In this document: positions 4,535 to 25,664 of the stretch, piece by piece | Layout: every line of letters begins with the position of its first letter | How positions within the stretch are numbered: the stretch's first letter is position 1 | Assembly (NCBI GenBank): GCA_000934665.2 | Contig: KZ538024.1 | Span: 124,001 to 155,309 of the forward strand | Length of the DNA stretch: 31,309 bases | Origin: Catajapyx aquilonaris | Taxonomy: Eukaryota | Reading direction: 5' to 3' | Translations under genes and position numbers: made by a program | Notes under the pieces: generated by a model | Databases searched by the model: none | Told to the model about the DNA's origin: nothing | What the model saw: the letters and a program-made list of their open reading frames with translations, nothing else

Positions 4535-4541
4535 TATAAAA
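4535..4541 (+). promoter_or_regulatory. TATA box, gene A
   Basis: TATAAAA 92 bp before the ATG. Confidence 0.65.
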
Positions 4542-4626
4542 GGAGTTGAACTTGTGTCTTCTTGGTCTGTATAAGTTTGGCAGGACACGTAGGAGGAAGA
4601 GGAGGAATCCGGGAGCCATCGTCGGG

Positions 4627-6779
4627 ATGAAGGGCTTTTGCTTCACCTTGATGGCTCTGTTCTTTTCGGTCACTGTGATGGTGAGTACTATAATCGGAGG
4701 TGAAGTTCCAGACACTTCGGGGATTCAGGTCACCAATTACGTCACTCTGACCACAGAGTTGCACTGGTTGTTACGGTGCTTGTGGTTATTTAACGTGCGT
4801 TCAAGTGGACCGTTATGTGAAGGGTTCCCATATCTGTGTAGTAAGTAATTATCATATATAACCATATTGCTCCAAAGTTGTAGAATTGGGGTTAAATACT
4901 ATTTTGTTAGATAACGTACACAGATTTAGGATAATCTATCTCATGGGAATACACTTTTTTGTCTCAATTCTGACTGAAAGTTAACAAAGCGTCGCATGTA
5001 AACAAATGTTTTCTAGGATTTATGTCCTCAAAACAGACTTAATGCGCTGGCTCGTTTAAATATTTGGAAATTAGTACCTTGCTTTTGTGCTTCACACAAT
5101 ATTAATCCAATATATTTTTTTCCATAAAGGCAATCTTCACATAATAAAAAGCAACAGCGCTTATGCAATATTATTCTGATTAAGTAGTCCACATAATATT
5201 ATTTAAAAGCCTGTCATAACTTCTATTAATAATATTATTTTGAGAGATATTTTCTTTTTCATGCTATTCATTAATTTTCAGGGAAACCTGCATACAGTGT
5301 GATCTTTTTAGTTATTGCAAATTTTGGCCAAGTTGTTACATTTGTGCGGCTTTTTGTGCCCCGCTCGAGGTGCTCACTTATTTCCAGGTGTGTTCGAATG
5401 TAGCAGTTGCTATATAATTGTGCACCTCGACCGGGTCGCAAACGCTTCACAAATGCTACAGCTTCGGGAAAAATTTGTGACAACTAAAAGGAAGCGAATA
5501 TTTGGAACACACTTACTAAGTTATAGCAATATTCGCTCCATTTTGCTCAAACTTTCCATATACTGTACACTTGCACAGTACAGGCAAGTTTCCACCGGGC
5601 TATATCAGCAGTGTTTGGGTATCTAAATAGACCGAACCAGAGCAAAAGGGACGAAAGTGAATAGTAAACGATTTCGAACAGTTTTGAGAACGATAAAGAG
5701 TCACGAAATAAAATTATTACATCTAATGAAATTCAGTACGCAAGAAATTTGTCAACCTTGTACGTAGTGTGTCCAGTCAGTTCAGTTGGAAGAATCCAAA
5801 GAACACTATTGGAGACATAATAAATGATCCTATTTGGGCCCAGTTGCGTCAAGTAGCTAATCAGTGACAATCTCTTTATCCTTCGCATTCATTGTTAACA
5901 ACAATATTCAAACTGTGAATAATAAGATTAACTACCGTATTTGTTCTGAATTTATGCTATTAATTACAAAGCCCACTCTGTAAGGCTGGGTTGCATGATT
6001 ATTAGCAAATGCAAAACAATCTGTTGGTCTTTGTTATTCAGTGAAATCAACAATATTCGAGAAACTGAAGAACATGGATGAACACCATGTTCTATTGTCT
6101 ACTTAGCCCACTACCAGTCCTTAGTTTTTTTTTAAAGTTCCTGATCAATAAGATAAGTCAAAAGTGAGGATAGGTTATGCTTGAGCTACATGCATTTGCA
6201 TAAGTAAATATTAACTGCGAATACCTTTAAAAATCTAGGTATATGCTTATATTCACACCAATCCTGCAGAGTTACAGTAAGGAATTCGGGTGCATGTATG
6301 CCCTATGATAAATCACTAGCTTAGACGACAAACTGGCCATGTTAGCATATATTGTGTTGTTGTTGTTGTTGTTGTTGTTGTTCTTCTTCTTCTTCTTCTT
6401 CTTCTTCTTTCTTCTAATTATTATTTCTTCTAATTATTATTTCTTAATTTCAGAATGCAGCAGAAATTCGTGACAAGTCAAGATTTTTCCTGAATACCAG
6501 AATTGGACCTAGTGAGTATAGTAAACCCAATGAACCATAACAACGTACCATAACAAAAAATTTCAGTACTGATTTCACTAGAAACCTAAATAAAGCATAG
6601 TAATTGTATGAATTTCCATTTATACAGGTTTTAACTTGTCATCTGTATTGGGGGTGCTCACGGGCGGCACAGTACCATCTGCAAACTCGAGCACACTCAA
6701 CCTGGGATTTTTCATGCCATTCAATCCTACAAATCCTGTGGTTCCACTCATATCCATTCCCCTCGATGGGAAGAAGTGA
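4627..6779 (+). CDS. Secreted prepropeptide A (87 aa, 3 coding exons), C-terminal GKK amidation signal
   Basis: Exons 4627-4680 (MKGFCFTLMALFFSVTVM|gtgagt), 6454-6511 (tttcag|NAAEIRDKSRFFLNTRIGP|gtgagt, phase 1) and 6628-6779 (tacag|SFNLSSVLGVLTGGTVPSANSSTLNLGFFMPFNPTNPVVPLISIPLDGKK*). TATAAAA at 4535, AATAAA at 7094. Intron phases 0,1 match the paralogues. An extra small exon in intron 1 cannot be excluded. Confidence 0.8.
6357..6407 (+). repeat. Compound microsatellite (TTG)8(TTC)9
   Basis: Read directly; followed by a duplicated ttcttctaattatta just upstream of the gene A exon 2 acceptor. Confidence 0.95.
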
Positions 6780-7650
6780 AATTTTATTGGCATCATGATT
6801 AGCTACCCACTCTGGAATATATCTCCTGGTTATGCTCAAATAATGCCTTTCTGAGGTATTCTTGCATAACCTTAGTGTGTGTGAAAATGATTGCATGCCT
6901 AGCAAAGAAGTACAAACTTTAATCACTGAATTACTTCAGGTGCTATTTTGGCAAGCAATGTTTAAAGGGCCAAGTGTGAAATGTGTAGGACACTATTAAT
7001 ACATATCTTCTAGTACCTTTCACTTCAGCACGGTTGTGTTAAGTGTATCGTATTGTTTTCTGTAACCATGTATTTTTACTGATTACGCTATGTAATAAAC
7101 GTATATACAGATGCAAAATATTCTAATGTCAGTAACATGAAACGTCCAAAAAAATACTGTATAACAATCAAAAGTTGTAGTACAAGTTTATTCTTTACCC
7201 TCCTGTTACACTACTTTTGAGTAGGCTGCACATTATCGCAAACAAAAATACAGTCTAATTTACTAATCATAATTAATGATTGTCTTATAGTCAAGAACAA
7301 TAGTTGTTTTCAAATTTGCTGCTTGAGTTAGTAACAGAAGGGAGTTTACAGTACAATATGTTTCGATGAGAAAATGGTATGGTAATAAATTGCACACCGC
7401 ACCACTCATGTCACATCAAAACATTATTGTCGTGTAAATATTAACACATTGACACTGATAGTAATGGACAGATCAGCGTCTCTATTATTAGAATTTTATG
7501 GTAACGCTCAGGTGCAGCTCTTTGAGCTGACCAAGGACATGTGATTTAAAAATTGCGCAACACAGAAGGTTACTATATCATTGCAAAAAAAACACACACT
7601 TGTTGGCAAATGCGTATCTTTTGATCTCCAAGTAAATTAAGCACAGTACA

Positions 7651-7657
7651 TATAAGA
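7651..7657 (+). promoter_or_regulatory. TATA box, gene B
   Basis: TATAAGA 59 bp before the ATG. Confidence 0.55.
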
Positions 7658-7709
7658 GCAAGGATCGCAGAGCTGGACACTTTCCTGTGTCAAGGATTTT
7701 GGAGTCACC

Positions 7710-23640: not shown

Positions 23641-23939
23641 TATAGTGTATATCCTAATGCTCTAAAATAGCGGCCAACACTAATGCTGCACAGTAGAAAA
23701 GAGAAAAATGGCCTTTCTGAACTTGCCTTGCTACACATATCTCCAAATTATATACATGTAGCCGTCAAATATAAATACATATTTCAAGGAAAAGTCCACA
23801 TTTCCTCTTCAAGTATGGCCTTATTTTATTATTACCATGTCACTACACTATTCATTACACTTCAGAGTGTCCTTGCTATCGCTTTAAAATTTCAGAAGAC
23901 CTGGTAAAAATTCATACAAACCTCTAAGAAATCCGCAAG

Positions 23940-23947
23940 TATATAAA
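23940..23947 (+). promoter_or_regulatory. TATA box, gene F
   Basis: TATATAAA 131 bp before the ATG, preceded by TCCGC as in C and E. Confidence 0.55.
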
Positions 23948-24070
23948 CCTCGTTTAGCTACCAATACCTCAATCGCACCAGGAGACGCGAATTTTGAATA
24001 GAGTTAGGAACTGTAGAACTTCTTTCTTAACACTAAAGTATTTCATCTAACAAGAATACAGTAGTCTACT

Positions 24071-25624
24071 ATGAAGGTTACACTAGCCATAATTATCGTG
24101 GGAGTGGCAGTAGTTACACACGGGCGTCTCATAGTAAGCTCAAGATAAGTTTTATGGCAGCGCTGTTGTCTCCTGTAATTTTGATTTTGCCTTTCAGCCC
24201 CCTGCTGATAATGTCCCAAATGAAGACGAATCGCTGATACAAAAAAGAATTATTCCTTTCGGCAGCAACAATGGGACCAGCACTGGTAAGAAGTCAACTC
24301 TTTATACTGCATGCCAACATGTAATTATTCTGGATGTATACGAGTAAGTCGTAATTAGTAGAATATACTAATCATCCAACGCTAAAAGAATATAAAATAA
24401 ATAGAAACATGATTAGCTCACTCCAGCGCTTATTCAAAAGTGCAGATGGCCATCAGGATGATAATTATATACAATATTGTGTGTTTTTTTTTAATTTACC
24501 CCGTGAATGACCTGTTAGGTCTTTAGGGGGTGGTGGATTACCACCATTGGTATTTTTTGGAGCGTGTTAAGATGAAATCTTATTAGTGTACTCCAGGGTT
24601 GGTAGGAGGGGATGTGCAAAGTGCATGTGCGCTGTCGTTAATTGGTCATTTTTGTGAACTCCCCCGGGTGGCTTAGTCTATCGGAAATTGCCACCCGAAA
24701 CGAAGTCAGAGATGGCCCAACTCTGCACGAAAGAAGGTGGGAACCCCGGGTGGGGATTGAACCCGGGACCTTAACTTCCGTGGGCGCGCGCGTTACCGCG
24801 GCGCCACTCCGTCTCCCTTACAATATTGTGTTATTCACTGCTACAGTACTTCGTAACATTTTCTACTCAGGAACAAACCCTTTTTCTGCTCCCAATTTAA
24901 ACATGTGATTTACTTATCTTCCTACCGGGACTGCAGTCGAATGGAATTCAATGGAAAAAAGTCAAAATTTTAATTCCCGCATGTGCATCACACCACAGGG
25001 AACCATTCACCAGTGCAATCATTAACCTTAAGCAAATTGTATTAGGTCTGACACATTAGGGATCTCGGACATAAGTGTCATGCACTGCATAATAATTGAT
25101 TGTTGACTACGATGAATAACATCCGTTAAATCTGAGCTTCCTAATACGAGTACATCCGAATTTTTAGTTAACTAGCCTTAGATAACTTTCTAAAATGATC
25201 AGGAGCTCACAACATCAAGCGATACATGACAATTCCATAGTCAATAGGCATGTAAATAATGACATTCTGGTCATGGTGCCCATGACAATAATTACCGGGT
25301 AATGTTGTATTGTACGAACGTCAAATAAACCCATTCTATTTTAATCCGAATCCTTAACCTGCAGTTATGGTGCTATCTTTAGGATTTTAAAATAATGCTC
25401 AAATTAAACAAAAATACATCCATAACAGGTCCAATAAATATGTTTTACTTTCACTCTCAGGTGGAGCCAACAATGCTGCTCTTAATGCAATAAGACATGC
25501 GATTAATGAGGTAGTTTCATTTCCTGGCAAAGCTGTGTCTGAAGCCATAACTATTATTTCACTTCCATTTGAAGTGCTTCGTTCTACAATTGGTTCTACC
25601 CTTGGTTCTACCCGCTTCGGCTAA
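24071..25624 (+). CDS. Secreted prepropeptide F (104 aa, 3 coding exons), ends RFG
   Basis: Exons 24071-24133 (MKVTLAIIIVGVAVVTHGRLI|gtaag), 24198-24285 (PPADNVPNEDESLIQKRIIPFGSNNGTST|gtaag) and 25461-25624 (GGANNAALNAIRHAINEVVSFPGKAVSEAITIISLPFEVLRSTIGSTLGSTRFG*). TATATAAA at 23940, AATAAA at 25659. Confidence 0.9.
24483..24818 (-). mobile_element. Full-length tRNA-derived SINE in intron 2 of gene F
   Basis: The minus-strand head has an A box (TGGCGCCGCGG) and a B box (GGTTCAATCCC), and there is an A-rich tail. Perfect 13-bp TSD TACAATATTGTGT at 24470-24482 and 24819-24831. Confidence 0.9.
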
Positions 25625-25658
25625 TTCATCATTCGGCAATGTTGGGCAATTTTCGAAT

Positions 25659-25664
25659 AATAAA
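25659..25664 (+). terminator. Polyadenylation signal, gene F
   Basis: AATAAA about 35 bp after the stop. Confidence 0.6.

What the first reader, a model, noticed from the sequence alone, without database searches (positions are those of the whole stretch)
4535..25664. Hidden tandem cluster of six secreted prepropeptide genes of an unrecognised family
Seen: six same-strand genes. Each has a TATA box, an 18-22-codon hydrophobic first exon, a phase-0 intron, a short phase 0-to-1 second exon and a terminal exon. Five have an AATAAA downstream. None appears intact in the ORF track because the exons are tiny. Known: signal + acidic propeptide + KR + variable mature peptide is the layout of peptide hormones, frog skin peptides, venom peptides and many antimicrobial peptides. 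Inference: a lineage-specific secretory system produced by tandem duplication and rapid divergence, probably expressed in one gland or cell type. I cannot match it to a named family.
Basis: partly seen in the sequence, partly recalled or inferred. Interest (0 to 1): 0.92.

Follow-up and report, generated by a model that had tools for sequence, protein, structure and literature searches.

The report
Six orphan amidated secreted-peptide genes
Six small neighbouring genes in an animal genome appear to encode secreted peptides that all end in the signal for C-terminal amidation and match no family searched; at least three are old duplicates of one another, and neither transcripts nor function have been shown.

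Summary
The six gene models hold up on sequence evidence. Six hydrophobic phase-0 first exons lie on one strand (0.35 expected), and 23 of 26 splice sites rank in the top tenth. One feature is not in the finding: all six proteins end in G, GK or GKK, the amidation signal (4.7% of background frames; 0 of 12 alternative frames).

The interpretation needs trimming. Signal + acidic pro-part + KR occurs only in G3, G5 and G6, the only proven paralogues. G1 is a probable relative and G4 a marginal one. G2 (273 aa, four exons, Gly-rich) shows no kinship. Synonymous sites are saturated and the mature part is no more variable than the signal: old duplicates, not shown hypermutation.

Predicted products are Cys-free, near-neutral, mildly hydrophobic amides of 39-76 aa, five with N-glycosylation sequons. 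Exon-level searches found no credible relative but are insensitive. No transcript evidence was obtained.

Best reading (0.45): a lineage-restricted exocrine secretion of amidated amphiphilic (glyco)peptides. The scan has no note on look-alike DNA, but lists several other orphan secreted clusters in this genome.

The parts
4535..4542 (+). G1 TATA box, 92 nt before the ATG
4627..4680 (+). G1 exon 1, 18 codons, signal peptide (no clear -3/-1 cleavage site by a simple rule)
6454..6511 (+). G1 exon 2 (phase 0-1): short spacer, single-Arg site, Phe-Phe-Leu start of the putative mature peptide; alternative acceptors at 6461 and 6464
6628..6779 (+). G1 terminal exon: two sequons, Pro-rich hydrophobic tail, ends G-K-K-stop (87 aa precursor); AATAAA at 7094
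7651..7658 (+). G2 variant TATA box
7710..7772 (+). G2 exon 1, 21 codons, signal peptide
8994..9087 (+). G2 exon 2 (phase 0-1), weak acceptor
9464..9547 (+). G2 exon 3 (phase 1-1), holds the KR site
10137..10717 (+). G2 terminal exon: Gly/Ser run, Asn run, Asp-rich spacer with 2 Cys, then a Gly/Leu/Phe-rich basic tail ending G-stop (273 aa precursor); no AATAAA
13147..13154 (+). G3 TATA box; initiator-like motif at +33
13221..13280 (+). G3 exon 1, 20 codons, signal peptide
13979..14045 (+). G3 exon 2: acidic pro-part (8 D/E of 16), KR, Leu-Phe-Phe
15381..15502 (+). G3 terminal exon: NGT sequon, hydrophobic core, ends G-G-stop (82 aa); AATAAA at 15565
17518..17525 (+). G4 TATA box; TCAGT initiator at +30
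17573..17638 (+). G4 exon 1, 22 codons, signal peptide
20854..20896 (+). G4 exon 2 (least secure exon: weak donor); ends on an NST sequon, as exon 2 of G5 ends on NGT
21512..21627 (+). G4 terminal exon: NST sequon, Ile/Pro-rich tail, ends G-K-stop (74 aa); AATAAA at 21692
22070..22077 (+). G5 TATA box; initiator-like motif at +33
22146..22208 (+). G5 exon 1, 21 codons (two ATGs in tandem), signal peptide
22332..22452 (+). G5 exon 2: acidic pro-part, KR, Phe-Ile-Pro, NGT sequon
22874..22971 (+). G5 terminal exon, 40% identical to that of G3, ends G-stop (93 aa); AATAAA at 23010
23940..23947 (+). G6 TATA box; initiator-like motif at +31
24071..24133 (+). G6 exon 1, 21 codons, signal peptide
24198..24285 (+). 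G6 exon 2: acidic pro-part, KR, Ile-Ile-Pro-Phe, NGT sequon
25461..25624 (+). G6 terminal exon, predicted mostly helical (low confidence), ends R-F-G-stop (104 aa)
25659..25664 (+). G6 AATAAA

Best explanation
A lineage-restricted cluster of real genes for secreted peptide precursors, with a core family (G3, G5, G6; probably G1; perhaps G4) that arose by old tandem duplication, and one differently built neighbour (G2). Inferred working: exon 1 gives the signal peptide; an Asn-X-Ser/Thr site near the exon 2/3 border is glycosylated; in a regulated secretory cell a prohormone convertase cuts at KR (single Arg in G1, G4 and possibly G2); a carboxypeptidase trims Lys; the amidating enzymes turn the final Gly into an amide. 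The acidic pro-part keeps the hydrophobic product soluble until release. The products have a hydrophobic start, a flexible polar (glycosylated) linker and a hydrophobic Pro-containing tail. They most likely act outside the body or in a lumen, as a gland secretion that partitions onto membranes or surfaces (defence or coating), not as classical hormones. Shown: gene anatomy, signals, paralogy and constraint. Inferred: expression, processing, tissue and function.
For: Gene reality. Amidation signal in 6 of 6: 39 of 834 stop-to-stop frames in the window end so; 0 of the 12 alternative frames of the terminal exons do; product of within-exon shuffle probabilities 3e-6, or about 2-5e-4 (hand product of the printed values) if G3/G5/G6 count once. 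Paralogy and constraint: (G3-G5 differences by codon position 26/19/51). A five-residue hydrophobic-S/T-hydrophobic-Pro-hydrophobic motif lies in the tails of G3, G5, G6 and G1, with Asn in G4. The six amidated ends all differ, unlike GPCR-ligand families, which conserve that end (established knowledge). No 19-residue segment exceeds Kyte-Doolittle 1.53, so no membrane anchor is predicted. Precedent for the layout in exocrine peptides: PMC7070584 (passages).
Against: No transcript, peptide or tissue evidence. Acidic pro + KR is absent in 3 of 6. Sequons are not enriched over composition in any single gene (P 0.07-0.99). The tail motif was chosen after looking; in G1 it has P=0.056 and the strict form fails in G4 and G2. 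A G3/G5/G6 profile does not score G1 or G4 above shuffles (65 and 33 of 500 reach the real score). No shared upstream motif supports one cell type. Net charge of 0 to +3 is low for membrane-lytic defence peptides. The same anatomy fits haemolymph, endocrine or seminal peptides.
Confidence: 0.45

Rival explanations
1. Infection-induced haemolymph effector peptides, a functional analogue of the Drosophila Bomanin/Daisho genes; G2's Gly-rich basic amidated tail would be a Gly-rich antimicrobial peptide.
For: Those genes are tandem, lineage-restricted and amidated (PMC6989431 passages). The G2 tail is 76 aa, charge +3, Gly-rich. G3 and G6 hold amphipathic 11-mers (moment 0.64-0.65). Other scan notes call the genome arthropod-like (not my test).
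Against: No strict kappa-B site in 600 nt upstream of any of the six TATA boxes, and one loose site (G5) against 0.19 expected per gene (weak, only upstream DNA scanned). Low charge. No CxxC in any mature part. None of the five collembolan AMP families described in PMC10051947 section 3.4 fits G1 or G3-G6, and no Pfam hit.
Confidence: 0.2
2. Orphan peptide hormones or paracrine ligands acting on GPCRs.
For: KR cleavage plus amidation is the neuroendocrine processing route; G6 ends in Arg-Phe-amide.
Against: The amidated ends are not conserved between paralogues. Products are long and hydrophobic, with sequons. No hormone family was hit in Pfam at E up to 1 or 10. Conserved arthropod neuropeptides are mostly single-copy (recalled).
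Confidence: 0.15
3. Reproductive secretion (seminal, spermatophore or egg-coat peptides).
For: Such genes are often small, orphan, tandem and TATA-driven (recalled). No direct evidence here.
Against: No sign of positive selection could be shown (synonymous sites saturated, so the test is weak).
Confidence: 0.13
4. The models are chance assemblies or decayed genes.
For: No transcript support. None of the predicted products turned up in the protein collections. G4 exon 2 is weak.
Against:: six concordant signal exons, codon-position bias, intact frames and the amidation signal in 6 of 6.
Confidence: 0.05

Closest known systems
Frog skin active peptide (FSAP) precursors (PMC7070584, passages)
   Same: Signal peptide + acidic spacer + KR + C-terminal bioactive peptide, precursors of 60-200 aa, some amidated; fits G3, G5, G6 as a layout.
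   Different: No sequence match. The signal exon here is not more conserved than the mature part, whereas the passage calls the FSAP signal evolutionarily conserved. Sequons in the mature part. Apparently an arthropod genome.
Drosophila Bomanin 55C cluster and Daisho peptides (PMC6989431, passages; PMC12894722, search listing only)
   Same: Tandem, genus-restricted, small secreted peptide genes with amidated mature forms.
   Different: No CxxC; products are 39-76 aa; no strict kappa-B sites upstream; no sequence match.
Collembolan AMP families: diapausin, Alo, defensin, cecropin, diptericin (PMC10051947, section 3.4)
   Same: Small secreted hexapod peptides; G2's tail is Gly-rich and Cys-free like the diptericins described.
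   Different: Three of the five families need six Cys; cecropins are about 26% basic residues. These peptides carry 0 to +3 and have no Pfam hit.
Leafhopper brochosomins and associated proteins (PMC10607721, passages)
   Same: Orphan secreted proteins of one gland that build a surface coating; an analogy for the surface-film reading only.
   Different: 21-40 kDa proteins, not short amidated peptides; no kinship tested.
Pigment-dispersing factor / NPF-type neuropeptides (recalled; not read)
   Same: Signal + acidic associated peptide + KR + amidated peptide; loose likeness of the Ser-hydrophobic-Pro tail motif; RF-amide in G6.
   Different: No Pfam hit for any exon; length and amidated ends differ; G6 lacks the Arg-x-Arg-Phe-amide end.

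Membership tests
FSAP superfamily | Signal + acidic spacer + KR/RR + C-terminal peptide | tested here: met
   Met in G3, G5, G6 only
FSAP superfamily | Conserved FSAP signal/pro sequence; signal far more conserved than mature part | tested here: not met
   No such Pfam family hit by exons 1-3; pN 0.32 in exon 1 against 0.33 in the mature part for G3-G5
Bomanins | CxxC motif in the mature peptide | tested here: not met
   No Cys in any predicted mature peptide; motif as stated
Bomanin/Daisho-like immune effectors | Toll/NF-kappa-B induction | tested here: inconclusive
   No strict kappa-B site in 6 of 6 upstream regions, 0.08 expected each; induction itself not testable
Cecropin | Strongly cationic 38-41 aa two-helix peptide | tested here: not met
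   Charge 0 to +3; no Pfam hit; definition
Diptericin / Gly-rich AMPs (G2 only) | Gly-rich, Cys-free mature peptide | tested here: met
   G2 tail composition; composition alone, which is convergent
Diptericin / Gly-rich AMPs (G2 only) | Sequence homology to the family | tested here: not met
   no hit (only Keratin_2_head at E 3.5)
Defensin, diapausin, Alo/knottin | Six-cysteine framework | tested here: not met
Amidated neuropeptide families (PDF, NPF, FMRFamide-type) | Conserved amidated C-terminal motif and Pfam match | tested here: not met
   Six different ends; no Pfam hit; family motifs recalled
Amidated secretory peptides (class) | C-terminal Gly with optional basic residues | tested here: met
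   6 of 6
Amidated secretory peptides (class) | Amide and cleavage shown by mass spectrometry | not testable with these tools
   Needs peptidomics

The most novel reading that the evidence does not exclude
An undescribed class of self-assembling amphiphilic glycopeptides: hydrophobic at both ends, N-glycosylated in the middle, amidated, kept soluble by an acidic pro-part and released together (with the Gly-rich G2 as matrix partner) from one gland of a little-studied hexapod as a surface film, adhesive or defensive coat, built with neuropeptide-type processing.
Probability: 0.12. Interest if true: 0.8.

Novelty: new variant of a known kind. Interest (0 to 1): 0.48.

Why it matters
If expressed as modelled, this is a new family of processed, amidated peptides that standard annotation and ORF scans miss. 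It is short enough to synthesise and test directly for antimicrobial, receptor or surface activity. Long, near-neutral, Cys-free amides with N-glycosylation sites are unusual among the peptide families compared here. Against that, the precursor layout and tandem orphan peptide clusters are well known, and other notes of this scan list several more orphan secreted clusters in the same genome. The surprise is therefore moderate until a tissue or an activity is shown.

Tried and rejected
RNA evidence: one search for runs with window 21500-23060; no RNA holder was listed. This is no evidence either way, and no reads were laid.

Protein relatives: all searches used single exons or alignments of terminal exons (20-192 aa), never whole spliced proteins, so sensitivity is low. 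The five-exon alignment gave none at E<=10 among proteins of 94-2000 aa (1932 candidates) or 17-93 aa (3 candidates). G2 last exon, residues 68-192: none at E<=0.001 among 7999 scored. HMMER over 1.84 billion representatives gave 3 hits. I read 2 of the 3 and rejected them as tandem-repeat artefacts; P0002 (3346 aa, 0 significant stretches) was not read. Pfam: 22 pieces, best E 0.076. NCBIfam: 10 pieces, G6 tail hit the LPFR-motif small-protein model at 19 bits against a cut-off of 40, rejected. PDB sequences: E>=1.9. ESM Atlas: best 0.80 for G6, nothing usable for G2.

Own genome: 8 searches found only the window itself, apart from low-complexity or chance matches (one chance match read). The G3 query missed even its 40%-identical neighbour G5, so distant copies elsewhere are not excluded. 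Local tblastn found no seventh member in the window or the 40 kb upstream.

Structure: single-sequence AlphaFold of the G6 tail gave three helices at pLDDT 63, pTM 0.32, too weak for a fold search; no complex job was sent. Promoter motifs: nothing convincing. No tRNA or Rfam match.

Literature: ten searches listed no paper describing this family. The library lacks most subscription journals, and no supplements were opened.

Rejected: PDF/NPF identity, cecropin, Cys-rich AMPs, one family of six, demonstrated rapid evolution.
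Full report
Setting. The window is the end of contig C93 of G000 (124001-155309; genome 285.6 Mb). Exons of a receptor tyrosine kinase end about 260 nt before the window; the best solved-structure match is human RYK, E 4.5e-24. An unrelated, partly seen gene starts near 29,600. The cluster is thus bounded on both sides, and no seventh member was found in the window or the 40 kb upstream. Other notes of this scan call the genome arthropod or springtail-like; I did not verify this. 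My one lineage test, the insect odorant-receptor family, gave a single weak match of 29 bits among 15 candidates, which is compatible with a non-insect arthropod but not decisive.

Observation. I rebuilt the models from the sequence; coordinates are in the parts list. Precursors are 87, 273, 82, 74, 93 and 104 aa. The chance tests are: hydrophobic phase-0 first exons at 6 loci against 0.35 expected; an initiator-like motif at the right distance from the TATA box in 4 of 6; 23 of 26 splice sites in the top tenth; AATAAA after 5 of 6. G2 differs from the description in having four exons. G4's second exon has a weak donor, but it ends on an N-glycosylation sequon just as exon 2 of G5 does, behind a similar non-consensus donor. 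Twenty-one other exon candidates inside the introns were listed and cannot be excluded without transcripts.

Feature not in the finding. All six reading frames end in G, GK or GKK before the stop, the substrate for peptidylglycine amidation (established knowledge). In the window 39 of 834 stop-to-stop frames end so, and 0 of the 12 other frames of the same terminal exons do. This supports the frames independently and points to a secretory cell with amidating enzymes.

Is it one family? G3, G5 and G6 are paralogues: full-length Z 18.4, 9.5 and 8.8, with 0 of 500 shuffles reaching the score. They share signal exon, acidic pro-part, KR, a hydrophobic start and an NGT sequon. G6 has a different, longer tail (terminal exon against G3: 95 of 300 shuffles reach the score). 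G1 resembles G5 and G6 weakly in global alignment (2 and 3 of 200 shuffles), G4 resembles G5 marginally (10 of 200). Local alignments and a three-gene profile do not reach significance for either. G2 shows no kinship beyond exon phases and the final Gly (best local values 11-15 of 500; profile 14 of the 345 shuffles that were scored).

Evolution. Between paralogues synonymous difference is at the shuffled level, while replacement difference is lower for G3-G5 (0 of 200 shuffles as low) and G5-G6 (1 of 200), but not for G3-G6 (27 of 200). Of 33 residues identical in G3 and G5, 21 use different codons. The duplications are old and the proteins constrained. Hypervariability of the mature part, as in frog skin precursors, is not seen.

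Predicted products. With inferred cleavage sites the amides are 56, 76, 42, 39, 46 and 65 aa (G1-G6), with net charge +1, +3, +1, 0, +1, +2, GRAVY 0.11-0.61, no Cys and no membrane-spanning segment. The sites for G1, G2 and G4 are single-Arg guesses. Five carry one or two sequons before a hydrophobic, Pro-containing tail; G2's only sequon lies before its guessed cut. Sequon counts are not above composition in any single gene.

How it most likely works. Signal removal, N-glycosylation, convertase cleavage, Lys trimming and amidation in a regulated secretory cell, with the acidic pro-part as a solubility chaperone; all of these steps are inferred. The amidated ends differ between paralogues while an internal hydrophobic motif is kept. 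That fits an amide that protects against carboxypeptidases in a secretion better than a receptor-binding end. Low charge and the lack of strict kappa-B sites argue mildly against classical inducible antimicrobial peptides. I put exocrine amphiphilic secretion at 0.45, haemolymph immune effectors at 0.2, hormones at 0.15, reproductive secretion at 0.13 and artefact at 0.05.

Comparison with known systems. It works like FSAP precursors in layout (PMC7070584, passages) and like the Bomanin/Daisho genes in being a lineage-restricted tandem set of amidated peptides (PMC6989431, passages), but fails the membership tests of both. It also fails those of the collembolan AMP families (PMC10051947, abstract and section 3.4). 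No credible relative was found in protein, family, structure or language-model searches. All used exon-sized queries, and the window's own products were not in those collections, so the blanks are weak. The scan's notes hold no look-alike by sequence (one search covered window 3035-15034 only) but list other, unrelated orphan secreted clusters in this genome.

Verdict. Real-looking and worth a transcript check. It is a new peptide family of three to five genes plus an odd neighbour, built on a known precursor plan, with amidation in all six and an unusual near-neutral, sequon-bearing product. Interest 0.48; new variant of a known kind.

Noticed in passing
L005:5347-9736 (G000:C93:119347-123736): Kinase-domain exons of an RYK-type receptor end just before the window on the same strand; an AATAAA near window 275 may be its poly(A) signal. 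RYK is a useful synteny anchor for finding the cluster in relatives.
   Followed up: partly
window 29558-30300 +: Two or more exons of an unrelated gene with a Glu/Lys-rich, low-complexity start; no Pfam match above cut-off; runs off the contig end.
   Followed up: partly
window 26050-26950: GC-rich dispersed repeat with 14 other matches in the genome at 69-93% identity; probably a decayed mobile element.
   Followed up: partly
window 11849-12153, 23412-23612, 27022-27575: Three long inverted-repeat elements (arms 118, 98 and 122 nt, 81-88% complementary), MITE-like; two lie between cluster genes.
   Followed up: no
window 10137-10717: G2's Gly-rich tail is bracketed by two similar short motifs (Gly-Arg ... 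Ile-basic-aromatic ... Leu-Gly-x-Leu-Leu ... Gly), suggesting an internal duplication (not tested statistically). Two Cys lie 6 residues apart in the acidic spacer.
   Followed up: partly
window 19054-19142 and 22700-22742: (AAT)n and (ATT)n microsatellites inside G4 intron 1 and G5 intron 2.
   Followed up: no
G000:C453:69645-69911: The only match to the insect odorant-receptor family 7tm_6 in the genome search is weak (29 bits) and lies in a 439-codon open frame, perhaps an intronless chemoreceptor.
   Followed up: no
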